In this document: one piece after another, positions 9,150 to 25,629 of the stretch
Numbering within the stretch: the stretch's first letter is position 1
How the letters are laid out: every line of letters starts with the position of its first letter
DNA from: Deltaproteobacteria bacterium
GTDB taxonomy: Bacteria; Myxococcota_A; UBA9160; SMWR01
Reading direction: 5' to 3'
Assembly: GCA_032128115.1 (NCBI GenBank)
Contig: JAQBHB010000090.1
Span: forward strand, 42,268-74,267
Length of the DNA: 32,000 nt
Program-made: the position numbers and the translations under genes
Notes under the pieces: model-generated
What the model saw: only the letters and a program-made list of their open reading frames with translations
What the model was told of the DNA's origin: nothing
Database searches by the model: none

Positions 9150-9317
9150 TTCGATGACCTTCCTGCGCCGGCCCTGTCGTCCTGTGAGGAACTACAGCGA
9201 GCCGCGCGACGGCTCCGAGCCAGGTTACGTCTTTCTGTGCACGGGGTCACCGGCGACACCCGTCGCGCCGGGGCTGAGGCTCCCGACGGTCAGCCCGCCT
9301 ATACTGCACCGCCGATC

Positions 9318-11450
9318 ATGCTGCGGAACTTCGGAGCGGCCCTGGCGGCGATCGCGGCGTTGACCTCCTGTGGGGGGGCTCCGCCTCCGCTGATCGCTGT
9401 CCATCGCCTGGTAAACGCCCCCTATCGGGATCCGGCTGGGAGCCGCCCGGAACACCTGATCACCCGCGTCCGCACCGCGTTCCTGCAAGCCCCCCCGTCC
9501 ACGGCCGGAATCCCCACCGCCACCATCGACGATGACACACGCACGGTGCTGGCGGCGCACCCGCGCGTGATGCTGCACTGGCCGAGGCTGCAGTTATCCG
9601 AGGGCGGCAATGTCGAGCTTGCGCTCTCGCTGGGCGACGGGTTCGCTGGCGCCACCCGGGCCACCGCTGTGCCGCATGTCTTCGACGCGGGAAGCTGGCA
9701 CGGTCTGCCACCCCTTCACCTGGAGATTCGACCCGACGGACCCACGCTCGCCCGCTTCCATGCGGCGGAATCCGACCTTCCGCGTCCCGTGAGGGTTGCC
9801 CTGGAGGTGCATCGAATCCCGGAAGTGGGTCGAACCAGCCATCGCACTGCGGAGCTGGAGATCCCATCGGAGAGCTTCCTCGACTTCGGGCTTGGCATCC
9901 TCGAGCCCGCCCGCGACCAGGGGGCCGTTCGCTTCCAGGTCTCGGTGTGCCGAGCCGACGCCTGCACTCCCGTGTTCGACGAATCCGTCGATCCGGGGGG
10001 CAGCGAGGCCGGATGGCGAGATCGCCGGGTATCCCTGGCCTCGCACAGCGGTCGCCGTTCCATCCGGTTTGAAACCGAGTACGCGGGCGGCGTGGACCGG
10101 GGATTCTCGCTCCCCGTGTGGGCCAACCCCACGATTCTGGCCCCGGACACCCGCGGCGATCTCGGCCCGAACGTCCTGCTGATCAGCCTCGACACTTTAC
10201 GCGCGGACCACCTGAGTCTGTACGGGTACGAGCGCGAGACTTCACCCTTCCTGCGCGACACCCTGGGACCCCGGAGCAGTGTCTTCGATGCCTACGTCTC
10301 GACCGCCACCACCACCGATCCCTCCCATATGACCATGTTCACCTCGCTGTCCCCCAGCGTGCATGGCGTGGCAGACAAACTCACACCGTTGCAGGTTCCC
10401 GTAATCACTCTCGCGGAGGTTTTGCGAGCCCGTGGCTATGCCACCGCCGCCTTCACCGAAAACGGTCCCCTCGCCCACGGCCGGGGATTCGAGCTCGGCT
10501 TCGAGGCGTACACCGAGAACCAGAGCCCGATCTTCCTCCTGCCCCCTGGGCAGGTGAAGCGCACGTTCGCGCAGGCACGGAACTGGCTCGAGAACCACGA
10601 CTCGCAGCGCTTCTTCCTGTTCCTCCACACCTTTCAGGTGCACTCTCCCTATGAGCCGCCGCCCGGATATCGTCAACTGTTTGACGGTGACGATTCATCA
10701 GCGCCGACGGGCGGACGGTCCACACGAAGCGCCCAGGAGCTCGTTTCCGACTACGATCGGGAGATCCGCTTCGTGGACGACGAGCTGCGCTCTCTTTTCG
10801 AGTGGCTCGATCGGCGCGACCTGACTGCCAACACCGTGTTGGTGATCACGTCGGACCACGGCGAACAGTTCCAGGAGCACGGGATCCAGGGACACAAGGC
10901 GCCGCCCTTCGAGGAGTTGACCGGGATCCCATTGCTCGTGCACGGGCCTGGCATCCCGGCGGGTCGCCGCATTGCGCAGCCGATCTCGCAACTCGACCTG
11001 ATGCCCAGCCTGCTCGAGCTGATCGGTGCGCCCGTCCCGGAGCAGGCCCGGGGCATTTCATTCGCGGGGCTGCTGGCGGAAGCAGAACCGGAACCCGGTG
11101 CACGCACCCGGCCCCTCTTCACGTCCGGGTGGGTACTGCCGAATGAATTCCAGGTGCCGTCGCTGGCGGTTCGCGTGAACGAGCGCAAGCTGATTCGCAC
11201 TCGCACGAGCGATGGCGTCGATCACTACTCTTACTTCGATCTGTCGAACGATCCGGGCGAGATGCGAAACCGATTCTCGGGACATCGAGCCGAGGCGGCG
11301 GATCTGATGGCGCTGCTGCGGGAGCACGAGCGCGACGCGAAAGCCAGCCGCGACGCGCTTCGCGCTGGAAATCTGCCCGGTGAGCCCACCCCTCCGGCCT
11401 TCGATCCGCAACGCGACGAGCAGCTGCGCGCTCTCGGCTACATCGAGTGA
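9318..11450 (+). CDS. lipoprotein, sulfatase / alkaline-phosphatase-superfamily hydrolase with an N-terminal unknown domain
   Basis: Start at ATG 9318 gives the signal peptide MLRNFGAALAAIAALTSC with lipobox L-T-S-C (Cys18, 9369-9371). The C-terminal half has the sulfatase fold pattern NVLLISLDTLRADHLS ... TTDPSHMTMFTSLSPSVHG ... VITSDHGE. The first 960 nt of track ORF 8358..11450 is antisense to the P450 and was rejected. Confidence 0.8.
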   Translation: MLRNFGAALAAIAALTSCGGAPPPLIAVHRLVNAPYRDPAGSRPEHLITRVRTAFLQAPPSTAGIPTATIDDDTRTVLAAHPRVMLHWPRLQLSEGGNVELALSLGDGFAGATRATAVPHVFDAGSWHGLPPLHLEIRPDGPTLARFHAAESDLPRPVRVALEVHRIPEVGRTSHRTAELEIPSESFLDFGLGILEPARDQGAVRFQVSVCRADACTPVFDESVDPGGSEAGWRDRRVSLASHSGRRSIRFETEYAGGVDRGFSLPVWANPTILAPDTRGDLGPNVLLISLDTLRADHLSLYGYERETSPFLRDTLGPRSSVFDAYVSTATTTDPSHMTMFTSLSPSVHGVADKLTPLQVPVITLAEVLRARGYATAAFTENGPLAHGRGFELGFEAYTENQSPIFLLPPGQVKRTFAQARNWLENHDSQRFFLFLHTFQVHSPYEPPPGYRQLFDGDDSSAPTGGRSTRSAQELVSDYDREIRFVDDELRSLFEWLDRRDLTANTVLVITSDHGEQFQEHGIQGHKAPPFEELTGIPLLVHGPGIPAGRRIAQPISQLDLMPSLLELIGAPVPEQARGISFAGLLAEAEPEPGARTRPLFTSGWVLPNEFQVPSLAVRVNERKLIRTRTSDGVDHYSYFDLSNDPGEMRNRFSGHRAEAADLMALLREHERDAKASRDALRAGNLPGEPTPPAFDPQRDEQLRALGYIE

Positions 11451-11591: not shown

Positions 11592-11637
11592 CCGTGCCAG
11601 CCACAAAATCCGTGCCAGCCACAAAATGGGTGGCTGG
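11592..11637 (+). promoter_or_regulatory. perfect 18-bp tandem duplication (CCGTGCCAGCCACAAAAT x2) whose second copy forms an 8-bp inverted repeat (CCAGCCAC-N7-GTGGCTGG); candidate operator or leader structure
   Basis: Read directly: copies at 11592-11609 and 11610-11627, with inverted arms at 11615-11622 and 11630-11637. A second GC hairpin (GGCGGGG-N4-CCCCGCC) follows at 11643-11660. All of this lies 20-90 nt upstream of ATG 11681. Confidence 0.5.
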
Positions 11638-11680
11638 GGCAGGCGGGGCTCCCCCCGCCAGAATTTCGAGAAGAGTGGCC

Positions 11681-12712
11681 ATGACGAAGAAGATCCGACC
11701 TGGCTACCTCCTCCCGAGCGCCGCCTACACCATCAGTCCCAAGCAGATCCGGCTCTACGAGATGTTGGATCGGACGCCCTTGCCGGGTGATGTCGTATAC
11801 GGTCGTGTGACATCCATCGGCCAGCACGGCTCGCTGGAGAACAAGCAGGGGCGAATCCACCAGATCAACGACGGGGTGCGCGCGGTCTTCGTATTCGGGA
11901 ATCGTTACGCCCCGGATGCATTCGAGGGATTCGTTCCCGAGACGGCGGTGACCGAGGCCGACGTGCTCGCACGCTCAGGAATGATCGGTCAGGTTCGAGA
12001 GAAGAATATCCAGATGAAAGACCCGACCCGGGTGGAGATCCTCGGCTACGTCGTGGATAAAGCGGGGGCGCCGCTCAATACCATGGACTACTCCATCGCG
12101 CTCCCGAAGCATCCGCTCGACCCGCGGAAGCGGCGCGCCAAGATGATCCTCCACATCGGGACGAGCATGAATTCCGGAAAGAGCACGTCTGCCGTCGCTT
12201 GTTGCTGGGCTCTCGCGGCGATGGGGCACGGCGTTCGGGCGAGCAAGGTGACGGGAACGTCCAGTCTCAAGGACATCCTGCACATGCAGGACGCGGGCGC
12301 CGAGATCGTTTCCGACTTCTCGTACCTCGGCTACCCGTCGACCTACATGCTCGACTTCGACGTCGTCGTAGAGATCTTCAAGAAACTCGATGCAAAGATC
12401 GGAAACAATCCCCAGAAATTCTGGATCGTAGAGTTCGCCGACGGAATCCTCCAGCGCGAAACCTCCGCCTTGCTTCGAGACGAGTACGTCCGATCACGGA
12501 TTCACAAGCTCGTATTTTCTGCGTCTGACGTATTCGGAGCGATCGGAGGTCTCCGGATTCTTCGGGATGAGTTCGACCTCGAGCCCAATGCGATCTCGGG
12601 TCGCTGTACCTCATCCCCACTCATGATTCGAGAGCTCGAGGATCGAACGGCGATTCCGATCTACAACAACATGATCCGAAATCTGCGTCAGCTTGGCGAG
12701 CTGCTGTTGTGA
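11681..12712 (+). CDS. P-loop (Walker A) protein of unknown function, possibly distantly DUF1611-like
   Basis: Walker A-like GTSMNSGKST (12158-12187) in the middle of a 343-aa protein, with a beta-rich N-terminal region. The start is moved to ATG 11681 (MTKKIRPGY). The longer track start would translate the DNA tandem repeat. The stop overlaps the start of the next gene (GTGA). Confidence 0.65.
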   Translation: MTKKIRPGYLLPSAAYTISPKQIRLYEMLDRTPLPGDVVYGRVTSIGQHGSLENKQGRIHQINDGVRAVFVFGNRYAPDAFEGFVPETAVTEADVLARSGMIGQVREKNIQMKDPTRVEILGYVVDKAGAPLNTMDYSIALPKHPLDPRKRRAKMILHIGTSMNSGKSTSAVACCWALAAMGHGVRASKVTGTSSLKDILHMQDAGAEIVSDFSYLGYPSTYMLDFDVVVEIFKKLDAKIGNNPQKFWIVEFADGILQRETSALLRDEYVRSRIHKLVFSASDVFGAIGGLRILRDEFDLEPNAISGRCTSSPLMIRELEDRTAIPIYNNMIRNLRQLGELLL

Positions 12713-13683: not shown

Positions 13684-15999
13684 TCACAGCGGGTCGCACA
13701 GCAGGACTTCCGTCACCCCGCCGGGCCGCTCCTCGTTGGACGACGCATCACACACATCGTCGTCGCTGCAGAAGTTCTTGATCGTTCCCGTGGGCGTCAG
13801 GAATTCGAGCAACTGATCGATCGAGGCGGGGATCGTGAATCGGAGTGCGTGCGGGTCGCAGACGCTGCTGGGAATCGTATTCGCAAGCGCCGGGATCACT
13901 GCATCGAAGGCCGGATCGAACACGTCGAAGGAGCCCGTGTCGTAGATCATCATCGCCGAGTCGAGGCCGCCCACCCCCTCCGGAACGTCGGGAATCTCGA
14001 CGAGCCCCTGAAGCAGCGAACCATCCAGGCTCGGGATGCCCAGCGACCGCGCCATGATTTCCGAGGCCTGGTTCGAGACCTGCTTGTCGAGCCAGGCCAC
14101 CGTCATCAGCATGTGCTTGGCGATCCCCGGCTGGCCGTCGTGATCGTCCAGGGGTGACTCGACGAGTCCGGTGACGTGGCGCACGGCGCTGGCGGGCTCC
14201 GAACTCACCCACTGTTCGTGCAGCAGACCCAGCCCCAGCGCTGTCTCCATGGGATCCGCCAGGCCCACGTTCGACAGCAGGCTCTCGAACGTGATGAACT
14301 GGGTCGAGCGTTGCAGGAGCAGCGAGAAGTTCATCGCAGGCACATCGATGTTGAAACGCTGGATGTCGTTCGTCAGGGCCGCGAGCCAGGTTCCCATGAT
14401 CCCGCCGAGGCTGACGCCGACGTAGAATTCCTGCTCGCCGGAGCCCGGGAACACGCCCGTACTGGAGCCGGTGCCCGGATCCGTCTGGAACTCGGCGAAG
14501 TCGTTCAGCAGGGTCCCCTTCATCAGATGCGTCAACACCAGGGTGTTGAGCATCCCCTGCTTGAGGCGAGCCGTGAAGGCCGGAAAGTTGTTCAGCTGGT
14601 GGTTGAAGAGCCCGATGATGCCCGCTCCGACCCAGTTGAAGTCGAAGCTCGAGAGGCCTCGGTAATCCGTGGCGCCCGCGATGTAGGGGAACGAATCGTC
14701 GGCGAACTCGTCCACGAGGCCAGCGGCGAGGGTGTCGACCATCCCCGCGCCATTTCCGAACAGGCCGTGTCCCAGGAGCAGCGGCCGAACGGTCACGCCC
14801 CCGTTGAAGACGCTGCAGGGGATCATGAAGTCTACGTTGGCGTCGATCGTTTCCTGGCCAATCGTGGTGTTCTGGATCGGATTGCCGTTGCCATCGACAT
14901 TCAGGAACGGAATGTGGCCGTCGTCCAGGGGTCCAGCGAGATAGTTGGGAACGTGGATCGTCAGCTTCAATCGGCGCCATACCTGGGTTCCGGGCACTGC
15001 GCAGTTGAAGACGTTCGCGGCGTTGAACGCCGCGTGGCTGGCCAGATCGATGTTGCTGGCCTGGAATGTCGCCGGGTTGGCTTCGATGTAGGTCAACACC
15101 TCGTCGCGCATGCTGAGGATCTGGTGGGTGAGCTGGTGTTCGCTCTGCACCACGAAGTCGAAGGCGAGAACCAGGTCGTCTCGCGGCACGCCATTCGCCG
15201 CAAGAATCTGGAAGATCTCCTCCATGTCTGCGCGCCGGCTCTCGAGCGCCGGGATCGTGCTGGGACGGGCGTCGCGAAGCGCCGCGAAGACGCCCTCGGG
15301 CTCGACGGGCGCCGCCACGGGATCCACCAGGTTGCGCATCGCGACGATGTAGCGATGGCCGGGCACGAGGCTCTTGCCCGGGCGCAGGAAGAGCACCTGT
15401 CGCTGGGGATTCCCGATCGCGCGTGCGTCGTTCTCGATGAAGTGGAGGATGCGCTCGCCGGTGTCGGCGTCGAGCAGCACCGAGGGGCTGTCGGTGTCCA
15501 GCGAGCGGTCGTCGTGGGTGCGCACGTTCTCATAGGGCGTCTGATTCAGCTGACCGCAGCAATCCGGGTCCAGCAACCGCGACGCGTCCGACGCCTCCAC
15601 GTCCACGCCGGCCGGGAAGTGCATGAGGATCTGCACGGTCGGGCTGAAGCCGTCGAGCTCGTTGAGGGGGTCCGGAACAAACGCCGGACCGTTCAGGACG
15701 GGCATGCCCACCTGGGGCAGCGCCACCTGCAGTGCGTTGCCGGGCCCGCCGCCCGCGGCCACCAGGAAGCGCGACGACGGATAGGGCAGGAGGCACTCCT
15801 CGTTGTTGAGGATCTCGCAAGCGTCCACGTCCTGGAGGTCGGCGATCTCGAAGACGACCCCATCGACGAGTTTGGGCCCCGTGGGGTTGTTGGGGTCGTC
15901 GATCTGGGCGGTGAGGATCCGAGGCCCGTCGACAGCGGGGATCGCGACCGTGCCGACGATGCCCCCGCCGGGGGCTTTATGCGATACCCATACTCGCAC
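13684..15999 (-). CDS. large (771 aa) putative alpha/beta-hydrolase-like protein (GxSxG), function unknown
   Basis: Long ORF with coding-like composition and a nucleophile-elbow-like motif YVGVSLGGIMG. Several Cys pairs (DACEILNNEECL, CDPHAL, CSDDDVCD, LLCDP) suggest an extracytoplasmic protein, but no signal peptide is visible at the called start. Confidence 0.6.
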   Translation of the reverse strand: MRVWVSHKAPGGGIVGTVAIPAVDGPRILTAQIDDPNNPTGPKLVDGVVFEIADLQDVDACEILNNEECLLPYPSSRFLVAAGGGPGNALQVALPQVGMPVLNGPAFVPDPLNELDGFSPTVQILMHFPAGVDVEASDASRLLDPDCCGQLNQTPYENVRTHDDRSLDTDSPSVLLDADTGERILHFIENDARAIGNPQRQVLFLRPGKSLVPGHRYIVAMRNLVDPVAAPVEPEGVFAALRDARPSTIPALESRRADMEEIFQILAANGVPRDDLVLAFDFVVQSEHQLTHQILSMRDEVLTYIEANPATFQASNIDLASHAAFNAANVFNCAVPGTQVWRRLKLTIHVPNYLAGPLDDGHIPFLNVDGNGNPIQNTTIGQETIDANVDFMIPCSVFNGGVTVRPLLLGHGLFGNGAGMVDTLAAGLVDEFADDSFPYIAGATDYRGLSSFDFNWVGAGIIGLFNHQLNNFPAFTARLKQGMLNTLVLTHLMKGTLLNDFAEFQTDPGTGSSTGVFPGSGEQEFYVGVSLGGIMGTWLAALTNDIQRFNIDVPAMNFSLLLQRSTQFITFESLLSNVGLADPMETALGLGLLHEQWVSSEPASAVRHVTGLVESPLDDHDGQPGIAKHMLMTVAWLDKQVSNQASEIMARSLGIPSLDGSLLQGLVEIPDVPEGVGGLDSAMMIYDTGSFDVFDPAFDAVIPALANTIPSSVCDPHALRFTIPASIDQLLEFLTPTGTIKNFCSDDDVCDASSNEERPGGVTEVLLCDPL

Positions 16000-16198
16000 C
16001 TCGAGCCAGAACGCAGCCTGAACCTCCTATGCCCGATTGGTGCTATCGCGCTCCCCCGGTGTCGCGTCGCGGCAAGGAGACCCGGGCTCGCCGCGGGTTT
16101 CTGCTTCAAGATCCGGCTGCTAGCGTATCATCTTGCGTGCAGTTCTTATACACTTCGGATGTTGCATCTGGTGGAGCTGCGCCTGACGGAGCCGAGCC

Positions 16199-17673
16199 AT
16201 GGCCTTCCTTGAAGACTTCGGACACGACGTCTTCATCAGCTACGCGCACATCGACAACCAGCCCGATCGCGAAGGCGAGCGCGGTTGGGTCGAGAGTTTC
16301 GAGCGGGCGCTCAAGCTGAGACTGCTCAAGCGTTTCGGGCGCGAGGTGGGGGTCTGGCGCGATCCCGAACTCGCTCGCTCCCAGCGCTTTGATCCGGTCA
16401 TCCAGGCCGCGGTCGAGGGCTCTGCGATCATGATCTCGCTGATCAGCGAGAGCTATCTGGCCTCGGACTACTGCCAGCAGGAAATGAGGTGGTTCGCCGC
16501 AAAGATGGCTGCGGAACCCGCGGGGGCCACGGTGGGCCACTACGTTCGGGTGTTTCCCGTGCTCCTCTACAACGTTCCACCCGGCGATTGGCCCGAAGCC
16601 TGCCGCGACACCTCCGGCTTCCGTTTCCACGACGCGGTTGAACGCGGTTTCGGAAAACCGCTGCACCCACAGCGCGACGACTTCACCGATCGACTCTGCG
16701 AGTTGGTGGAGGAGTTGCACACCGTGCTTACAACTCTCTCGAAGCGGACCGGCGATCTCGAAGCCCCCGCAGAGGAACCGCGGGCAGTATTCCTGGCGGA
16801 GGTGTCGGACGACTTGAGAAGAGACCGCCGCCATCTGGGCCTCGATCTCGAGAAACAGGGCATCGAGGTCGTCAGCGGCATCCTGCCCGCCGACGCACGA
16901 ACCCAGTACGAGGCGGCGGTGGTCAAGGCGCTGGGAAAGTCGAAGCTCTCGGTCCACCTGCTGGGCACCCTTGCCGGTCGACCACTGGACGAGTCAGATC
17001 CCGAGAGGACCTATCCGGTGGAGCAGATGCGGATCGGGCTCGAACACGCCCGTTCCCAGCTGGTGGTCCTGCCGCCGGAGTTCGAGCGAGAGGACATCCA
17101 GGAGCCCGGGTACGCGGACCTGATCAGCTCGTTGCAGGAACGGCAGCGAGAAGCCGAGCGGCTCGAGATCGTCCGGATGGGTCGCACCCAACTCGCCGAG
17201 GAGGTTCTGTCCAAGCTCAAGCGACTCGACGCGCAGGAGAAGGCAAAGCGAGTCGCTTCCGCGCCGAGCGGCGAGAGCAGAGCCTTCGTCGACTTGCACA
17301 TCAACGACCTGTCCTCGGCCGGGGATCTCGTTGGATATCTTCAGCGCAACGATCTCCCGGCCATCACGATTCCCTCGGGTGATCTCGACCCGGCGGCCGG
17401 ACTGTCCCTGTTCGAGGAGAATTTGACCAAGGCGCGTTTCTTCATCGTCGTCTTCGGGAGCGTCGCGCGCAGCTGGGTCGAGCAACGCCTGAACGAAGCA
17501 TTGAAACTCATCCTGAGCAATCGACTCAGTACGCGCGTCGGTGTCTATCTGGCACCCCCCCACAAATCGGCAGCGGAAGCGATGTTTCCCCCCTTCTTCC
17601 GGGTCATGAACAACACCGACCACTTCGACCCGAAGACCGTGGACGCACTGCTTCGAGAGCCGCCCGAGTCTCC

Positions 17674-17677
<4 letters not shown>
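16199..17677 (+). CDS. TIR-domain protein (N-terminal TIR, C-terminal ~350 aa with two further TIR/DUF4062-like alpha/beta modules)
   Basis: The N-terminus HDVFISYAHIDN ... AIMISLISESYLASDYCQQEMRWF matches the bacterial TIR pattern (FISY strand; S-x-x-Y-x-x-S-x-W/YC-x-x-E). The candidate catalytic Glu95 is at 16481-16483. SD GGAG lies 7 nt before the ATG. The stop overlaps the next start (ATGA, 17674-17677). Confidence 0.85.
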
Positions 17678-21534
<3,857 letters not shown>

Positions 21535-21542
21535 CGCTTGCG

Positions 21543-23708
21543 GTGTACGAGCCCAGACCCCTCGATACGGATCTCGCCGAGCTCGATCCCGAGTTGCACG
21601 CCCTGCTCGAGCGGCTGGCCGAACACCACCACGACCTCTGGGCCCGCGCGCAGATGCGCGAAGGCTGGCGCCACGGGGCCACACGCGACGAAGACCGCAA
21701 GCTCGACCCGCGCCTGATTCCGTACACGGAGCTGGCGGAGCCGGAAAAGCAGCGCGAACGCCGCGGAGCGCGGGAAGTCATCCACGCGATCCGGGCGCTC
21801 GGCCTCGAAATCCGTCGGCTCGTGCCCCACCCGGCTTCCGCCCGGATTCGCGACCGGGTGGCGGCGCCCGCCCCAGTGGCGCTGGGCGACGACGTTCCCG
21901 GCGTTCGCCAGCGGGTGGAGGAGCTTCTCCGCATGGGCGAGCCGCTCCTGGCCTACGAGGCGATCCAGGAGGCCATCGGGCGCTGGCCCGGGGATCTCCG
22001 CTTGCGCCAGCTTCGGGGACTCGCCCTGGCCCGCAGCGGGGCCGCCGATCGCGCGAACCAGGCGATGCGCGAGCTTCGCGAGGAAGGCCACGGCGACGGC
22101 GAGACGCTCGGCATCCTGGCTCGAACGCACAAGGACCTGGCACAGCGCGCGGCAGCGCCAGCGGATCGGGCGTTGCACCTGGAACAGGCCTACCTCGCCT
22201 ATCGGCAGGGCTACGACGCGGCACGCCGCCTGGACAACATCGGGGATGCGTATTTCACGGGCATCAACGCGGCCACGCTCAGCTTCGTCTCGGGTGAACC
22301 CGAACGAGCAAGAGGGCTCGCTCGCGAAGTGCGCGCGCTCTGCCAGCACCAGCTGGCGCTCAGCCCCGAGGACGCATCCTATTGGTTGTACGCGACGCTT
22401 GCCGAGGCCGCGCTCCTGTTGGGTGACCGTGGCGAGGCCGAAGATCAGTATGGCCGGGCCGCTGAGCGGGCGGGCGGGCGCTTCGCCGACCTGAGCACCA
22501 CTCGGCGCCAGGCGCGTTTCCTGCTGTCGGAGCGGGGCGAAGATCCCAGATGGGTCGAGGAGGTCCTCCAGGTCCCCCCGCTCGCCATGTTCACGGGACA
22601 CATGATCGATCGCCCCGGGCGAGAAAGCGCCCGCTTTCCACCCGAGCACGAAGACCGGGTCGCGCACGCGATCCGGGAGCGGATTCGACGGATGCGTCCC
22701 GCGGCCGGCTATGCCTCGGCCGCATGCGGGGGCGACCTCCTGTTTCTGGAGTCGATGCTCGCCGAGGGGCGCGAATTCCACGTGGTTCTGCCCTTCCCTC
22801 CCGACGAGTTTCTCCGCACCAGCGTCGACGTGATCCCGGGCGCCAGCTGGCGCCAGCGCTTCGACCGTGTACTGGCGGCCGCGGCCAGTGTGACCACGGC
22901 CAGCGACCACCACTCCTCGGACGATGTGTCGAACTTCGTCTACGCAAACCTGATCCTCACCGGCATGGCAGCGCTCCACGCGAGACGCCTCGATACGGAG
23001 CTCTTCGCCCTCACCGTATGGGACGGAGAACAAGGGGACGGCCTGGGCGGCACCGCATCGCTCCTGCAGCATTGGCAGTCGAGTGGCCACGCTGTCGAGC
23101 GGATCGATCCCGCCGCTCCGGATGCGGAGGTCACGAACCCCGCGCTCCCGAGCGCCGACGGAACACACGCGATCCCCGAGAATCTGATGGCGATGCTCTT
23201 CGCCGACGCCGTTGGCTACAGCGAGCTGCACTACGATCAGATCCCGCTCTTTGTCGAGCACTTCGTCTCGCCGATCGCAGAACTGATCGGTCGTAGCGCC
23301 ACCCCGCCCGTCCTCAAGGAAACCGCGGGAGACGGTTTCTACTTCGTGTTTCGAAACGTGCGCGACGCTGGGCTGTTCGCCCTGGCGCTCCGCGACCTCA
23401 TCTCACAGGTGGACTGGGAGGCCCGCGGGCTTCCCGCGACCCTGGGGCTTCGCACCGCGCTCCACTGTGGTCCGGTTCACAAGCTGGTCGACCCGATCAC
23501 GGGCGAACAGAAGTTCACCGGGCCCCACACGAGCCGCACCGCCCGCATCGAGCCGATTACGCCGCCGGGCCAGGTCTACGCGAGCCAGGCCTTTGCCGCG
23601 GTGGCCGCAGCGATCGGAGTCGAAGAGCTCGACTTCGAGTACGTGGGGCGCACCGACCTGGCGAAAAAATACGGCTCGCTCGCCCTCTACCACGTGCGGC
23701 GCGCCTGA
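21543..23708 (+). CDS. multidomain protein: RyR domain - TPR-like (MAP3K-TRAF-binding/DUF4071-like) region - Rossmann/SLOG-like region - class III adenylate/guanylate-type nucleotidyl cyclase domain
   Basis: RyR-like segment HALLERLAEHHHDLWARAQMREGW..G......K.DPRLIPYTELAEPEKQRER (about 21582-21812). Helical repeat region with GILARTHKDL...YFTGINAATLSF. Segment MFTGHMIDRPGRESARFP...ACGGDLLFLESMLAEGREFHVVLPF from 22587. Cyclase motifs LFADAVGYS (Asp 23205-23207), AGDGFYFVF (Asp 23331-23333) and GPHTSRTARIE. The start is uncertain. GTG 21543 is the first start after the upstream stop (8-nt gap). The track's 21252 start would overlap the WD40 gene by 283 nt. Confidence 0.8.
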   Translation: MYEPRPLDTDLAELDPELHALLERLAEHHHDLWARAQMREGWRHGATRDEDRKLDPRLIPYTELAEPEKQRERRGAREVIHAIRALGLEIRRLVPHPASARIRDRVAAPAPVALGDDVPGVRQRVEELLRMGEPLLAYEAIQEAIGRWPGDLRLRQLRGLALARSGAADRANQAMRELREEGHGDGETLGILARTHKDLAQRAAAPADRALHLEQAYLAYRQGYDAARRLDNIGDAYFTGINAATLSFVSGEPERARGLAREVRALCQHQLALSPEDASYWLYATLAEAALLLGDRGEAEDQYGRAAERAGGRFADLSTTRRQARFLLSERGEDPRWVEEVLQVPPLAMFTGHMIDRPGRESARFPPEHEDRVAHAIRERIRRMRPAAGYASAACGGDLLFLESMLAEGREFHVVLPFPPDEFLRTSVDVIPGASWRQRFDRVLAAAASVTTASDHHSSDDVSNFVYANLILTGMAALHARRLDTELFALTVWDGEQGDGLGGTASLLQHWQSSGHAVERIDPAAPDAEVTNPALPSADGTHAIPENLMAMLFADAVGYSELHYDQIPLFVEHFVSPIAELIGRSATPPVLKETAGDGFYFVFRNVRDAGLFALALRDLISQVDWEARGLPATLGLRTALHCGPVHKLVDPITGEQKFTGPHTSRTARIEPITPPGQVYASQAFAAVAAAIGVEELDFEYVGRTDLAKKYGSLALYHVRRA

Positions 23709-23812
23709 TTGGAACCCGCAAACGGGCGCCCCCGGGAGCGCTCGAACCTGCGACGTACCCCCGGAAACCCGCCCCGAGAAAATCCAACGCTCGCGCCCGA
23801 GGCCGAGTTCCC

Positions 23813-23923
23813 CTACGCCCGAATGCGCCGCCTCCCCAGAAGCAGGAGGAAACCAACGCCCACGACCAGCATGCTGAGCACATCCGGCTCGGGCAGGGGA
23901 ATGCAGTCGACATCGCAGCCATT
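23813..23923 (-). pseudogene. orphan PEP-CTERM sorting-signal remnant (3' end of a truncated gene)
   Basis: The minus-strand translation ends ...NGCDVDCIPLPEPDVLSMLVVGVGFLLLLGRRRIRA*. This is a PEP motif, a hydrophobic helix and an Arg cluster, the canonical PEP-CTERM tail. The upstream part of the same ORF is antisense to a transposase fragment and has no plausible start. Confidence 0.45.
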
Positions 23924-23992
23924 CGAGAGGGTCTCCTGCCCCTCGCACGGCTGATCGCCACAGCAGGCCAGAACGCGCGATGGCTGTCTCAA

Positions 23993-24133
23993 CCGGTGGC
24001 TCTTCGAGTCACTGCGCGAAGCACGAGAGACGTCGGAAGCATGGCTGCAGGAGTACAACGTGGAGCGACCGCATGGGTCGCTCGGAGGGCAAGTGCCCTC
24101 CAAGTTCTTCGAACAATGGGAAGAGCAGAATAG
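23993..24133 (+). mobile_element. C-terminal fragment of an rve/DDE (IS3/IS481-like) transposase; IS remnant
   Basis: The frame translation RWLFESLREARETSEAWLQEYNVERPHGSLGGQVPSKFFEQWERAE* matches the conserved tail of integrase-core transposases (..A...i..W...YN..RPH..LGG..P..F). No upstream catalytic domain is present, since an in-frame stop sits at 23951-23953. Confidence 0.7.
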
Positions 24134-24146
24134 GGAAGCAGCCTGA

Positions 24147-24386
24147 TGTTCAGGCGAAATCCCGAACCCAACGGCTGGTAGCGGTTCTTCGGGCTTGCCA
24201 AACACGCAGGGCGCGTTCTCCATCGACCTGGCCACCGGTAGGCTCCAGGTGGTAGAGCCCGCGGCCCTGGACTTCGAGACCACCCCCTCCTTCACCCTGA
24301 AGGTCTGGGCGTGCGACTCCGCGGAATCTGCCCACAGCGCCACGGCCACCATCACGATCGATGTCAGAAACGCCGATGAGTCCCCC
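24147..24386 (+). pseudogene. isolated cadherin-like repeat fragment
   Basis: The translation ...GAFSIDLATGRLQVVEPAALDFETTPSFTLKVWACDSAESAHSATATITIDVRNADESP follows the cadherin-domain pattern (F.ID..TG.L.V...LDFE....F.L.V.A.D......T..I.V.N..E.P). It has no start or signal peptide, begins right after the transposase remnant, and degenerates into non-coding-looking sequence after 24386. Confidence 0.55.
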
Positions 24387-24782
24387 GCAGATGAGACAAA
24401 AAAGAATCGGCGGAAGGAACTCGAGCGCAAGCTCCCGGTGTGGGGCCAGATCCCGCCTCGGCTCCTGTTTGACAGAACGCTTAACTATCGGACCCGGCGG
24501 AAACACAGCTTGTTCGTCCTATCCCCTGAATTTCACTGTCTTCACATTCGTTTTCCCTTCCGATGAAATATTGAACTTTCTAGACGTCGTTTGTACCCCG
24601 TCAGCAGAAGTCGGACCGGGGGTCTTCGGGCCGGCCTCGAAGAGGATCTCCACCTTGCGGACGCCGGCCTTGCGGGGTCCCGCCCCAGCCTTGCCCTCCG
24701 CCTCGCCGTCGGCTGGCCCTCCTTTTTTTTGACACTTAGGCTTGTTCGGAGCCACTTCCTTGTACAGGGGATCCGCGCGCCC

Positions 24783-24821
24783 GGAGAAAACTTCTTCCGA
24801 CAAATGGAAGGTCTTTTCTCC
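24783..24821. promoter_or_regulatory. imperfect palindrome (GGAGAAAA..CTTCC-N7-GGAAG..TTTTCTCC), candidate enhancer-binding-protein site (UAS)
   Basis: Outer arms are at 24783-24790 and 24814-24821, inner arms at 24794-24798 and 24806-24810. The centre lies ~97 nt upstream of the predicted sigma54 transcription start. Confidence 0.3.
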
Positions 24822-24872
24822 TCTCGGGCGCCGTTCGGTTCGCAACTCCCTGATTTTCCTACGTTCCGAATC

Positions 24873-24888
24873 TGGTACGGATATTGCT
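24873..24888 (+). promoter_or_regulatory. sigma54 (RpoN) -24/-12 promoter
   Basis: TGGTACGGATATTGCT matches TGGCAC-N5-TTGC with a single mismatch and correct spacing. It lies 121 nt upstream of the PEP-CTERM gene start. Predicted TSS is about 24899. Confidence 0.55.
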
Positions 24889-24901
24889 CCAGCCCGTGCC
24901 G

Positions 24902-24942
24902 GGAAGGGGAGCCGCCTCGCGCGGTTCTGCTTCCTTTTTTTT
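24902..24942 (+). terminator. intrinsic-terminator-like hairpin plus U8 in the leader of the PEP-CTERM gene
   Basis: GGAAG (24902-06) pairs with CTTCC (24930-34). GAGCCGC (24909-15) pairs with GCGGTTC (24921-27, one G-U). The loop is 5 nt, and TTTTTTTT follows immediately (24935-42). Confidence 0.45.
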
Positions 24943-25008
24943 GTGCTCGCTCCTGGGAAGGGCATTCGCGCGGGGGACCGACAGCGGTTCCCCGGGGACC
25001 CAGGAGGA

Positions 25009-25629
25009 ATGCCCGTGTCTGCTCTATCGAGGTTTCGCTCTATCGGCTCCCAGTGCCGTCGGCTTCCCAGGCTGGCTCCTCTGGTGGTATCGATCGCTAT
25101 CGTTGGCTTTGCCGCGGCCGCCGCAGCAACTCCGATGCTCGGTCCGGTGACGATGTTGTTCACCCACGCACAGGGAACGGGGACGATTGAGATCCTCGGA
25201 AGCAGCACCGGACCGCCGACCGACGGCATCCAGCTCGGCGGTATCACCGACGCCCAGGCTGTGACCCTCCTCTTCGAGGTCTTTGTGACCGGGGGCAACG
25301 AGCTGAAGACGCTCACCCTCGAGTACGACACGCAGGCGTCAACCGGCGTGGGAGTCGTCCCCGGTTCGGGCGTGGACTTCAAGTCGGCGGCTGCGAGCGG
25401 GGGAGGCTGGACCCTCTCGCCGAACAAGCTCAAGGAGGGCACGAGTGACATCTTCTTCGTGTCGTTCGCGAACAGTCTGGGCTCGGGAGACCTGAGCTTC
25501 GACATGAAGTTCAAGACAGGCACAGCGAACGTGAGCACAATGATCCAGAACCCGGAGCCGAGCACCGTACTGCTCCTGGGCCTGGGTCTGGTCGGACTGA
25601 CCGCTGCTCGCAGACGATCGCCGCGCTGA
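25009..25629 (+). CDS. PEP-CTERM sorting-domain protein (secreted/exosortase substrate)
   Basis: N-terminal signal-like region MPVSALSRFRS...LAPLVVSIAIVGFAAAAAATP. C-terminus QNPEPSTVLLLGLGLVGLTAARRRSPR* has PEP at 25552-25560, a TM helix and an Arg cluster. AGGAGG lies at 25002-25007. The start is either ATG 25009 or in-frame GTG 25015, which has better SD spacing. Confidence 0.85.
   Translation: MPVSALSRFRSIGSQCRRLPRLAPLVVSIAIVGFAAAAAATPMLGPVTMLFTHAQGTGTIEILGSSTGPPTDGIQLGGITDAQAVTLLFEVFVTGGNELKTLTLEYDTQASTGVGVVPGSGVDFKSAAASGGGWTLSPNKLKEGTSDIFFVSFANSLGSGDLSFDMKFKTGTANVSTMIQNPEPSTVLLLGLGLVGLTAARRRSPR

What the first reader, a model, noticed from the sequence alone, without database searches (positions are those of the whole stretch)
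21543..23708. Unusual cyclase protein: RyR domain + MAP3K-TRAF-binding-like TPR + possible SLOG-like module + class III cyclase with an Asn-to-Ser change in the catalytic loop
Seen: (a) an N-terminal RyR-type repeat (..LAEHHHDLWARAQMREGWRHG....KLDPRLIPYTELAEPEKQRERRGAREVI..). (b) A helical array containing GILARTHKDL...YRQGY...YFTGINAATLSF, which resembles the ASK1-type TRAF-binding/DUF4071 TPR region. (c) From 22587, MFTGHMIDRPGRESARFP...GYASAACGGDLLFLESMLAEGREFHVVLPF, which has the look of a Rossmannoid nucleotide-binding (SLOG-like) module. (d) A cyclase domain with both metal-binding Asp present (FADAVG, AGDGF). The transition-state loop reads GPHTSRTARIE where the canonical form is G..VN.A.R.E, so Ser (23532-23534) replaces the usual Asn while the Arg is kept. 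Inference: the domain may be active with altered chemistry or substrate (compare the pyrimidine cyclases of Pycsar), or it may be regulatory. The start codon is uncertain, with no ATG until well inside the RyR domain. GTG 21543 is the best candidate, and ATG 21432 would overlap the WD40 gene by ~100 nt.
Basis: partly seen in the sequence, partly recalled or inferred. Interest (0 to 1): 0.7.

Follow-up and report, generated by a model that had tools for sequence, protein, structure and literature searches.

The report
TIR-linked TPR-S/SLOG nucleotide cyclase gene
This gene encodes a four-part signalling enzyme (RyR domain, a TPR sensor of the kind that reads TIR-made signals, a DprA/LOG-like nucleotide-binding fold and a class III nucleotide cyclase) sitting in one operon with a TIR protein and a STAND-WD40 sensor, which suggests an untested bacterial relay from an NAD-derived immune signal to a cyclic-nucleotide output.

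Summary
ORF 21543-23708 (+) encodes RyR (Pfam E 6e-25), TPR-S (E 4e-17, weak MAP3K_TRAF_bd), a Rossmannoid domain and a class III cyclase domain. The Rossmannoid domain has no sequence hit, but its AF2 model (pLDDT 91) best matches DprA, ShosA, MCP and LOG, the SLOG superfamily. The cyclase domain matches PDB cyclases by profile (E 2e-9) and Rv1900c by Foldseek (E 3e-12, TM about 0.7).

Ser664 does occupy the canonical Asn position, but this is a family trait. Among 247 relatives the position is S in 162 and N in 42. Both metal Asp, the Arg and the Lys are nearly invariant, so the domain is probably active. The base-specifying pair is non-canonical (E/K) and variable, so the substrate cannot be predicted. 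There is no PycC signal.

The gene is third in a tightly packed operon, TIR -> nSTAND1-WD40 -> this gene. Of 80 species loci, 30 have a TIR gene nearby and 22 an nSTAND1 gene. nSTAND1 fusions also exist. TPR-S is the same Pfam domain as in ThsI, the cADPR-responsive effector of type VIII Thoeris.

Best reading: a TIR-signal-gated cyclase, untested experimentally. It is a new variant of a known kind. GTG 21543 is the supported start.

The parts
16199..17677 (+). TIR protein gene (492 aa). It has an N-terminal TIR_2 domain with the catalytic-type Glu95 (16481-16483) and a C-terminal DUF4062-like region. Its stop overlaps the next gene's ATG (ATGA).
   Evidence: Pfam TIR_2 E 8e-13. PADLOC ThsB1 E 2e-7. 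Homologues carry PF13271 plus PF13676. Junction sequence.
17674..21534 (+). nSTAND1 NTPase with about 15 WD40 repeats (1286 aa). Walker A GSSGCGKS lies at 17818-17841 and Walker B LLLLDQFEE at 18094-18120.
   Evidence: Pfam nSTAND1 E 1.2e-84 over aa 10-427; WD40 E 2e-133 with 15 stretches. Coordinates.
21543..23708 (+). Target ORF of 721 aa, starting at GTG 21543, 8 nt after the stop codon of the WD40 gene. The public gene call uses GTG 21504 (734 aa).
   Evidence: In one search, most of the 38 RyR-bearing homologues begin M-x-Y-x-P-x-P-(L/I)-DTS at exactly this position.
21546..21815 (+). RyR repeat domain (aa 2-91).
   Evidence: PF02026 E 5.8e-25. PDB RyR repeats and bacterial RyR-like proteins 3nrt and 6uag.
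21954..22283 (+). TPR-S sensor repeats (aa 138-247). The wider helical array spans about aa 100-340, i.e. about 21840-22562. It holds the signature ETLGILARTHKD ... YRQGY ... YFTGINAAT.
   Evidence: PF20308 E 4.4e-17; PF13281 E 1.7e-4. The same Pfam pair is found in ThsI of type VIII Thoeris.
22581..23108 (+). SLOG-superfamily-like Rossmannoid domain (aa 347-522). Family-conserved motifs are FTGHMIDRPGR..RFP, SAACGxD..LE, YANL and WDG..GDGxGGT.
   Evidence: AF2 pLDDT 90.7. Foldseek top hits DprA, ShosA, MCP and LOG. Conservation. No sequence-level hit.
23178..23702 (+). Class III nucleotidyl cyclase domain (aa 546-720). Key residues: metal Asp D555 (23205-23207) and D597 (23331-23333); E593 (23319-23321) and K657 (23511-23513) at the base-specifying positions; S664 (23532-23534) at the canonical Asn; R668 (23544-23546); K708 (23664-23666).
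   Evidence: Profile against PDB. AF2 and Foldseek. Residue census. Coordinates.

Best explanation
The ORF encodes a signal-gated class III nucleotidyl cyclase. It is the third gene of an operon, TIR -> nSTAND1-WD40 -> RyR/TPR-S/SLOG-like/cyclase.

Shown:
- the four domains;
- intact metal-binding Asp, Arg and Lys in the cyclase;
- tight operon packing;
- recurrent linkage of this protein family to TIR and nSTAND1 genes across phyla;
- the TPR belongs to Pfam TPR-S, the same domain present in ThsI, the effector of the experimentally verified, cADPR-dependent type VIII Thoeris system.

Inferred:
- the STAND-WD40 protein detects an invader-derived or stress cue and switches on the TIR protein;
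- the TIR converts NAD+ into an ADP-ribose-derived nucleotide, cADPR-like by analogy;
- this ligand is bound by the TPR-S array, possibly together with the adjacent SLOG-like pocket;
- binding re-orients or assembles the obligate cyclase dimer and turns on conversion of an NTP into a cyclic NMP.

The output would be either a second-tier messenger or drainage of the nucleotide pool. In some relatives the neighbouring genes encode cNMP-binding proteins that could read such a messenger.

The Ser at the Asn position is a normal state for this family and does not imply loss of activity. The substrate cannot be read from the sequence.
For: Domains.

Catalytic residue census in 247 relatives: D in 244, D in 242, R in 233, K in 224.

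Operon:
- TIR stop and nSTAND1 start overlap (ATGA);
- an 8-nt gap precedes GTG 21543;
- the same trio occurs in L091, where the TIR is 68% identical.

Linkage among 80 species-representative loci:
- TIR within 4 kb in 30, nSTAND1 within 6 kb in 22, both in 18;
- gene order and orientation vary, and the TIR architectures are diverse: TIR+DUF4062-like, TIR-TM-WD40, TIR-TM-TPR, ThsB_TIR, SIR2_2+TIR.

Fusion evidence: P0193 is nSTAND1+TPR-S+SLOG-like+cyclase. P0199 combines a STAND NTPase with this module.

TIR features: the catalytic-type Glu is present and PADLOC gives a ThsB hit.

TPR-S link to TIR signalling:
- the Yersinia type VIII Thoeris TIR from Table S2 of Yirmiya et al. (bioRxiv 10.64898/2025.12.03.692087) maps to locus L086;
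- the adjacent 417-aa effector there has PF20308 at E 2.4e-17 and PF13281 at E 1e-5;
- that paper shows cADPR activates this effector and proposes the TPR as the receptor.

cNMP output: Pfam-confirmed cNMP_binding neighbours lie within 4 kb in 14 of 80 loci. They include a 2x cNMP_binding + patatin protein.
Against: The link is facultative. 50 of 80 family loci have no TIR nearby. The TIR-nSTAND1 pair occurs without the cyclase gene in 5 of 6 TIR-seeded contexts. The cyclase may therefore be an add-on or an independent neighbour.

No cNMP-binding protein is encoded in this window, so no reader of the output is visible here.

Pairwise similarity between this protein and ThsI is not significant. 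The relation rests on a shared Pfam profile.

It is unknown whether TPR-S or the SLOG-like domain binds the ligand.

Foldseek TM scores for the SLOG-like domain are modest, about 0.4.

The surroundings are not an obvious defence island: sulfatase, asparaginase, amidase.

Nothing here has been tested biochemically.
Confidence: 0.45

Rival explanations
1. The protein is an ordinary physiological signalling cyclase. The TPR-S/SLOG module senses an endogenous metabolite or nucleotide, and the N-terminal RyR, GAF or other module adds a second input. The TIR-nSTAND1 pair next door is a separate two-gene conflict system that happens to sit, or tends to insert, beside it.
For: 50 of 80 loci lack a TIR. 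The N-terminal modules are typical of sensory cyclases; P0133 has GAF. cNMP-binding and Crp-like neighbours occur mostly in TIR-less loci. TIR-nSTAND1 pairs exist without the cyclase gene.
Against: TIR adjacency in 38% of loci, across Acidobacteriota, Verrucomicrobiota, Proteobacteria, Cyanobacteria and Gemmatimonadota, is far above what scattered TIR genes would give. This comparison is my own estimate of background, not a computed value. The adjacency holds with shuffled gene order and with unrelated TIR architectures. nSTAND1 is fused directly to the module in P0193. TPR-S is tied to TIR signalling in a validated system. Operon packing in the window is tight.
Confidence: 0.25
2. The flow is reversed, as in Pycsar. 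The cyclase protein is the sensor and signal generator, and its cyclic nucleotide activates the TIR protein as an NAD+-depleting effector.
For: Pycsar systems pair a class III-type cyclase with TIR effectors. The base-specifying residues are non-canonical.
Against: The window TIR protein shows no cNMP-binding domain; only TIR_2 and a weak DUF4062 hit are found. The other partner TIR proteins scanned show none either. The cyclase protein gives no match to any PADLOC model. No PycC structure is among the top 50 structural neighbours. The partner TIR proteins carry their own sensor-type repeats (WD40, TPR) or pair with a STAND sensor, as signal generators or STAND-driven effectors do.
Confidence: 0.1
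3. The cyclase domain is catalytically inert. It serves as a dimerisation or nucleotide-binding scaffold, and the real activity lies in the SLOG-like domain, for example LOG-type nucleotide hydrolysis or processing of the TIR product.
For: The canonical Asn is replaced. The substrate-specifying pair is variable. PF00211 does not score this sequence. The SLOG-like domain has many invariant polar residues, including D, S, D and E, with H, R, R, E, C, E, S, R, Y, N and D nearly invariant. LOG-type members of the SLOG superfamily are enzymes (my own knowledge).
Against: Both metal Asp, the Arg and the triphosphate-binding Lys are kept in more than 97% of aligned members. The motif RIEPITPPGQVYAS is almost invariant. 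Asn and Ser alternate freely at the position in question. cNMP-binding neighbours occur in some loci.
Confidence: 0.1

Closest known systems
Type VIII Thoeris (ThsB TIR + ThsI effector; Yirmiya et al. 2025 bioRxiv 10.64898/2025.12.03.692087)
   Same: A TIR gene sits next to a gene whose product carries Pfam TPR-S (PF20308) with a weak MAP3K_TRAF_bd signal. ThsI scores 2.4e-17 and this protein 4.4e-17. The motifs ET.G..(A/G)...K and Y..G.N.A are shared. TPR-S is fused to a nucleotide-handling Rossmannoid domain in both.
   Different: ThsI is 417 aa, with an N-terminal 'CMP hydrolase' domain before the TPR-S and no cyclase. Here the order is RyR, TPR-S, SLOG-like, class III cyclase. A STAND-WD40 gene lies between the TIR gene and this gene. 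The TIR here is a 492-aa TIR+DUF4062-like protein, not a 137-aa ThsB. Pairwise similarity is not significant. No phage-defence test exists.
Type I Thoeris ThsA (SIR2-SLOG)
   Same: The effector joins a SLOG-type nucleotide sensor to an enzymatic output and is encoded beside a TIR signal generator (for the published mechanism).
   Different: The output here is a cyclase, not a SIR2 NADase. The SLOG-like domain resembles DprA, ShosA and LOG in Foldseek, and ThsA is not among the top 50 hits. An additional TPR-S domain is present.
Class III adenylate/guanylate cyclases (e.g. Rv1900c, CyaB, Ma1120, sGC, GC-A)
   Same: Same fold (TM 0.65-0.77). Same two metal Asp, transition-state Arg and triphosphate Lys.
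   Different: Ser replaces the Asn. The specificity pair is E/K, not K/D or E/C. The loop GPHTSRTARIEPITPPGQVYAS is family-specific and nearly invariant. The regulatory module TPR-S plus SLOG-like is not described for any characterised cyclase in the literature I could search.
Pycsar PycC pyrimidine cyclases
   Same: A class III-type cyclase in a conflict-system context, with non-purine-type pocket residues possible.
   Different: The protein matches no PADLOC model. PycC is not among the top structural neighbours. There is no adjacent cNMP-binding TIR or TM effector in the window.
ASK1/MAP3K5 N-terminal regulatory region (MAP3K_TRAF_bd, PF13281)
   Same: The TPR array matches profile positions 178-316 of PF13281. 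Many homologues pass that model.
   Different: The score in this protein is below the gathering threshold. There is no kinase and no PH domain. The bacterial context is TIR and STAND.
Split STAND-TIR conflict systems (nSTAND1 of Kaur et al. 2021, eLife 10:e70394)
   Same: The neighbouring pair TIR -> nSTAND1 (+WD40 or other repeats) recurs as a unit in 6 of 6 TIR-seeded contexts. nSTAND1 is the clade named in that paper.
   Different: That literature, as far as I could read it, does not describe a third TPR-S/SLOG/cyclase component.

Membership tests
Class III nucleotidyl cyclase (cyclase homology domain) | Cyclase homology fold (beta-alpha-beta-beta-alpha-beta) | tested here: met
   AF2 pLDDT 89.9. 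Foldseek to Rv1900c, CyaB, GC-A, Ma1120 and CyaC at E about 1e-12 to 1e-11, TM 0.65-0.77.
Class III nucleotidyl cyclase (cyclase homology domain) | Sequence match to the family model | tested here: inconclusive
   PF00211 does not hit this sequence at E<=1. It is recorded for many homologues. The family profile hits PDB cyclases at E 1.7e-9.
Class III nucleotidyl cyclase (cyclase homology domain) | Two metal-binding Asp | tested here: met
   D555 and D597 align to the canonical Asp. They are kept in 244 and 242 of 247 relatives.
Class III nucleotidyl cyclase (cyclase homology domain) | Transition-state Asn and Arg | tested here: not met
   The Arg is kept (R668; 233 of 235 non-gap). The Asn position is Ser664. 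Across the family it is S 162, N 42, V 14, T 9.
Class III nucleotidyl cyclase (cyclase homology domain) | Canonical base-specifying pair (K/D for ATP, E/C for GTP) | tested here: not met
   The pair is E593/K657. In the family, position 1 is N, E or Q and position 2 is highly variable.
Class III nucleotidyl cyclase (cyclase homology domain) | cNMP synthesis | not testable with these tools
   Needs an enzyme assay.
TPR-S (PF20308) | Score above the Pfam gathering threshold | tested here: met
   63 bits against 27.6, E 4.4e-17, aa 138-247.
TPR-S (PF20308) | Genomic association with a TIR gene | tested here: met
   A TIR gene lies in the same operon. A TIR lies within 4 kb in 30 of 80 family loci.
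TPR-S (PF20308) | Binding of an NAD+-derived ligand | not testable with these tools
   This is a published prediction, with indirect support for ThsI.
RyR domain (PF02026) | Score above the Pfam gathering threshold | tested here: met
   87.8 bits against 27.4. phmmer to RyR repeats.
MAP3K_TRAF_bd (PF13281) | Score above the Pfam gathering threshold | tested here: not met
   21.2 bits against 24.1. Close homologues do carry it.
SLOG superfamily (SMF/DprA-LOG) | Rossmannoid fold closest to DprA/LOG-type structures | tested here: met
   The top Foldseek hits are DprA (8 chains), ShosA, MCP and LOG, with prob up to 1.0 and E from 4e-6. TM is only about 0.4.
SLOG superfamily (SMF/DprA-LOG) | Sequence-profile match to a described SLOG family | tested here: not met
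   No Pfam or PDB sequence hit for 24 members or for the family profile.
SLOG superfamily (SMF/DprA-LOG) | Glycine-rich ligand loops after the core strands | tested here: inconclusive
   SAACGxD and GDGxGGT are conserved at the expected places. Their equivalence to the DprA/LOG motifs rests on my reading, not on an alignment test.
Thoeris-type TIR signalling system | TIR signal generator with a catalytic Glu, encoded with an effector | tested here: met
   TIR_2 E 8e-13, Glu95 in the C-x-x-E context, PADLOC ThsB 2e-7.
Thoeris-type TIR signalling system | Effector carries a domain known to receive TIR signals | tested here: met
   TPR-S is shared with ThsI of verified type VIII Thoeris. A SLOG-like domain is also present.
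Thoeris-type TIR signalling system | Anti-phage defence and signal-dependent effector activation | not testable with these tools
   No experiment is available. PADLOC does not recognise the cyclase protein.
Pycsar | Match to a PADLOC defence-system model | tested here: not met
   The cyclase protein matches no PADLOC family at E<=0.01.
Pycsar | Adjacent effector with a cNMP-binding domain | tested here: not met
   None is present in the window. Such proteins are present near 14 of 80 relatives.

The most novel reading that the evidence does not exclude
The operon is a two-tier second-messenger cascade in bacterial immunity. A STAND-WD40 sensor fires a TIR enzyme. The TIR's cADPR-type product is read by a TPR-S/SLOG receptor and converted by the fused class III cyclase into a cyclic mononucleotide signal, or into an NTP drain. 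The N-terminal RyR repeat may also take part in sensing the ADP-ribose-derived ligand. That would give a prokaryotic precedent for the long-debated link between cADPR and ryanodine-receptor domains.
Probability: 0.2. Interest if true: 0.8.

Novelty: new variant of a known kind. Interest (0 to 1): 0.6.

Why it matters
TIR-based signalling (Thoeris) and cyclic-mononucleotide signalling (Pycsar, cAMP/cGMP) are treated as separate branches of bacterial immunity. A protein that joins a TIR-signal sensor domain to a nucleotide cyclase would be a direct coupling of the two. It is encoded with a TIR and a STAND sensor in several phyla.

The protein family is large. It is present in 512 of about 185,000 species genomes, and the mid-domain profile hits 5,508 clusters at 50% identity. 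I found no experimental study of it.

It also offers:
- a clean system to find what TPR-S binds, which bears on the homologous region of human ASK1;
- a way to learn what a Ser-for-Asn class III cyclase with an E/K pocket makes;
- a possible function for bacterial RyR domains.

Tried and rejected
- Pfam and NCBIfam on the whole protein gave nothing for the mid domain or the cyclase.
- A 24-sequence profile of the mid domain found nothing in PDB sequences or Pfam. Only structure prediction resolved it.
- PADLOC gave no hit for the cyclase protein.
- tblastn of the TPR region against PLSDB plasmids found nothing.
- BLASTP of this protein against ThsI was not significant.
- The promoter and terminator scan of 15800-24300 was uninformative.
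- My first literature search on 'TPR-S/nSTAND' returned only noise.
- Two papers are not in the held library: Burroughs & Aravind 2020, which according to Yirmiya et al. predicted this TPR domain's role in TIR signalling, and Burroughs et al. 2015. I therefore could not check whether they already list a TPR-S+cyclase architecture.
- Two neighbour clusters (27 and 25 loci) turned out to be driven by generic WD40 and TPR repeats and were discounted.
- The long antisense ORFs across the WD40 gene (for example 17839-21684 minus strand, 1281 aa) are high-GC and repeat artefacts, not genes.
- I considered and rejected the idea that Ser664 marks a private loss of function.
- I considered and rejected ATG 21432 and GTG 21504 as starts.
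Full report
**The observation**

The frame 21252-23708 (+) is open. Translated from GTG 21543 it gives a 721-aa protein.

- Pfam finds RyR (PF02026) over aa 2-91 at E 5.8e-25.
- Pfam finds TPR-S (PF20308) over aa 138-247 at E 4.4e-17.
- MAP3K_TRAF_bd (PF13281) scores just below its threshold (E 1.7e-4, 21.2 bits against 24.1).
- phmmer against PDB sequences returns only ryanodine-receptor repeats and bacterial RyR-like proteins.
- Neither Pfam nor NCBIfam scores the C-terminal half.
- The protein has more than 744 relatives in the 5.8-billion-protein collection. Many carry PF00211 and PF13281 in addition.

**Cyclase domain**

A 24-sequence profile of aa 531-721 hits class III cyclases in the PDB: 3mr7 at E 1.7e-9, sGC beta 3et6 at 7e-8, then GC-A, Rv1264, Cya2 and others. 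Those alignments place the residues as follows:

- D555 and D597 fall on the two metal Asp.
- R668 falls on the transition-state Arg.
- K708 falls on the triphosphate-binding Lys.
- S664 (23532-23534) falls on the canonical Asn.
- E593 and K657 fall on the two base-specifying positions.

The AF2 model has pLDDT 89.9. It superposes on Rv1900c, CyaB, GC-A, Ma1120, CyaC, Cya2 and RhGC with TM 0.65-0.77 and E about 1e-12 to 1e-11. No PycC appears in the top 50.

A census of 247 relatives shows the following:

- Metal Asp: 244 and 242 of 247.
- Arg: 233.
- Lys: 224.
- Asn position: S 162, N 42, V 14, T 9.
- First specifier: N 121, E 88, Q 21.
- Second specifier: scattered (N, L, T, K, M, D).

Ser-for-Asn is therefore the family norm, exchangeable with Asn, in a domain that keeps its catalytic core. 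I read it as an active cyclase with unknown substrate. The protein matches no PADLOC model.

**Middle domain**

The segment aa 340-530 has strongly conserved motifs: FTGHMIDRPGR..RFP, SAACGxD..LE, YANL and WDG..GDGxGGT. It has no sequence-level relative in Pfam or the PDB.

- Its AF2 model is confident (pLDDT 90.7, pTM 0.89) and shows an alternating beta/alpha Rossmannoid layout.
- Foldseek against the PDB puts DprA (5mll, 3uqz, 4ljk) first, at E 4e-6 to 4e-5 and prob 1.0.
- ShosA (8zva), the Moco carrier protein and LOG follow.
- All of these belong to the SLOG superfamily. TM scores are only about 0.4, so I call the domain SLOG-like rather than a member of any named SLOG family.
- A profile of this domain finds 5,508 clusters at 50% identity (1,119 below 1e-30) among 1.84 billion representatives.
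- It is found in 512 of the GTDB species genomes, in Verrucomicrobiota, Acidobacteriota, Gamma- and Betaproteobacteria, Cyanobacteria, Gemmatimonadota and others.

**Start codon**

Most of the 38 RyR-bearing homologues begin M-x-Y-x-P-x-P-(L/I)-DTS exactly where GTG 21543 would start this protein. The RyR model also begins at residue 2. GTG 21543 lies 8 nt after the stop of the upstream gene. The public gene call of 734 aa uses GTG 21504. ATG 21432 would overlap the upstream gene by 103 nt.

**Context**

- The upstream gene (17674-21534) is an nSTAND1 NTPase with about 15 WD40 repeats.
- Before it lies a 492-aa TIR protein (16199-17677). Its stop overlaps the nSTAND1 start (ATGA).
- The TIR protein has TIR_2 at E 8e-13, a PADLOC ThsB hit, a Glu in the catalytic C-x-x-E context and a DUF4062-like C-terminal part.

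In 80 species-representative loci of the cyclase family:

- a TIR gene lies within 4 kb in 30;
- an nSTAND1 gene lies within 6 kb in 22;
- both are present in 18.

Gene orders and orientations differ between loci. The TIR architectures are unrelated to one another: TIR-TM-WD40, TIR-TM-TPR, ThsB_TIR with a large C-terminal domain, and SIR2_2+TIR. Fusion proteins exist: P0193 is nSTAND1+TPR-S+SLOG-like+cyclase, P0199 has a STAND NTPase with the module, and P0133 has GAF in place of RyR.

The reciprocal test starts from the TIR protein.

- Its homologues are followed directly by an nSTAND1 gene in 6 of 6 contexts read.
- The cyclase gene follows only in the closest one, L091, where the TIR is 68% identical.
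- TIR-nSTAND1 is therefore a core pair, and the cyclase gene is a facultative third component.
- The cyclase gene also exists on its own in many genomes.

In 14 of 80 loci a cNMP-binding-domain protein lies within 4 kb. These loci are mostly TIR-less and belong to the clade with Glu at the first specifier. The neighbours include a TPR+cNMP_binding protein and a 2x cNMP_binding+patatin protein. This fits real cNMP production by the family.

**Link to known biology**

Yirmiya et al. (bioRxiv 10.64898/2025.12.03.692087) verified type VIII Thoeris. A TIR makes canonical cADPR on infection. The effector ThsI ('CMP hydrolase and TPR') is activated by cADPR. The authors propose the TPR as the receptor and cite Burroughs & Aravind 2020 for the earlier prediction.

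I took the Yersinia TIR sequence from their Table S1, found it in the protein collection and read its locus.

- The adjacent 417-aa effector carries PF20308 TPR-S (aa 207-317, E 2.4e-17) and PF13281 (E 1e-5).
- It shares the motifs ET.G...K and Y..G.N.A with the protein here.
- Pairwise BLAST between the two is not significant, so the relation is at family-profile level.
- Neither the main text nor the held supplements of that paper list a cyclase effector.
- My other literature searches found no study of this architecture.
- I could not read Burroughs & Aravind 2020, so prior computational mention cannot be excluded.

**Mechanism**

Shown:
- the domain composition;
- the intact catalytic core;
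- the operon packing;
- the recurrent but facultative TIR/nSTAND1 linkage;
- the shared TPR-S with a cADPR-responsive effector.

Inferred:
- the STAND-WD40 sensor activates the TIR;
- the TIR product, an ADP-ribose derivative, binds TPR-S and/or the SLOG-like pocket;
- the obligate-dimer cyclase is switched on and makes a cyclic nucleotide, or drains an NTP.

I give this about 0.45. The rivals are:
- an independent physiological cyclase (0.25);
- a Pycsar-like reverse flow (0.1);
- an inert cyclase with an enzymatic SLOG-like domain (0.1).

**Verdict**

The finding is real and its domain calls are correct. The highlighted Asn-to-Ser change is ordinary for the family. The more interesting point is the predicted coupling of TIR signalling to a nucleotide cyclase. 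This is a new variant of known Thoeris-type systems and is untested.

Noticed in passing
window 16199-21534; loci L087-L092: The TIR(+DUF4062-like) gene followed directly by an nSTAND1 NTPase gene is a conserved two-gene unit. The nSTAND1 gene carries WD40 repeats, NHL-type repeats or none, and the stop and start often overlap. The unit occurs without any cyclase gene in 5 of 6 TIR-seeded contexts.
   Followed up: partly
L010, L015, L024, L025, L031 (about 9160-9760, minus strand); L040:5981-7021; L042:72-1079; L028:5974-8184: cNMP-binding-domain proteins lie next to the cyclase gene in 14 of 80 relatives, mostly the TIR-less clade with Glu at the first specifier. They include small stand-alone proteins, a TPR+cNMP_binding protein and a 2x cNMP_binding+patatin protein.
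   Followed up: partly
proteins P0193, P0199, P0133: Variant architectures of the same TPR-S/SLOG-like/cyclase core exist. One has nSTAND1 fused at the N-terminus. One has a second cyclase plus a STAND NTPase at the N-terminus. One has GAF in place of RyR.
   Followed up: no
window 21504 vs 21543: The public gene call (734 aa) starts at GTG 21504, which overlaps the WD40 gene by 31 nt. Homologue N-termini favour GTG 21543.
   Followed up: yes
window 17839-21684 (minus) and other ORFs of 150-390 aa across 19000-21300: Long ORFs antisense to, or out of frame with, the WD40 repeat gene appear here. They are typical of high-GC repetitive coding sequence and are not genes.
   Followed up: partly
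window 24742-25629 (+); 24001-25000: A 295-aa ORF carries a PEP-CTERM sorting signal (E 3.7e-6). It lies in a stretch where GC falls to 0.60 against about 0.65-0.72 around it. The region 23709-24740 downstream of the cyclase gene has no convincing gene.
   Followed up: no
window 13684-15999 (minus) and 11594-12712 (+): Two sizeable ORFs upstream of the TIR gene have no Pfam match at all. The first is 771 aa as listed and 637 aa in the public call. The second is 372 aa.
   Followed up: no
L091:2235-5789 (minus): In the closest sister operon, a second unrelated cyclase-STAND protein lies 2 kb upstream of the TIR gene. It combines zinc ribbons, Guanylate_cyc, AAA_16 and TPR.
   Followed up: no
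L090:11589-14948 (minus): In Sphaerotilus microaerophilus the TIR-nSTAND1 pair is followed by a convergent 1119-aa TIR-WD40 protein.
   Followed up: no
L086:2743-4414: The Yersinia enterocolitica type VIII Thoeris pair (ThsI+ThsB) sits between MobA/MobL, TraD and a Y1 transposase gene. This places it on a mobile element.
   Followed up: no
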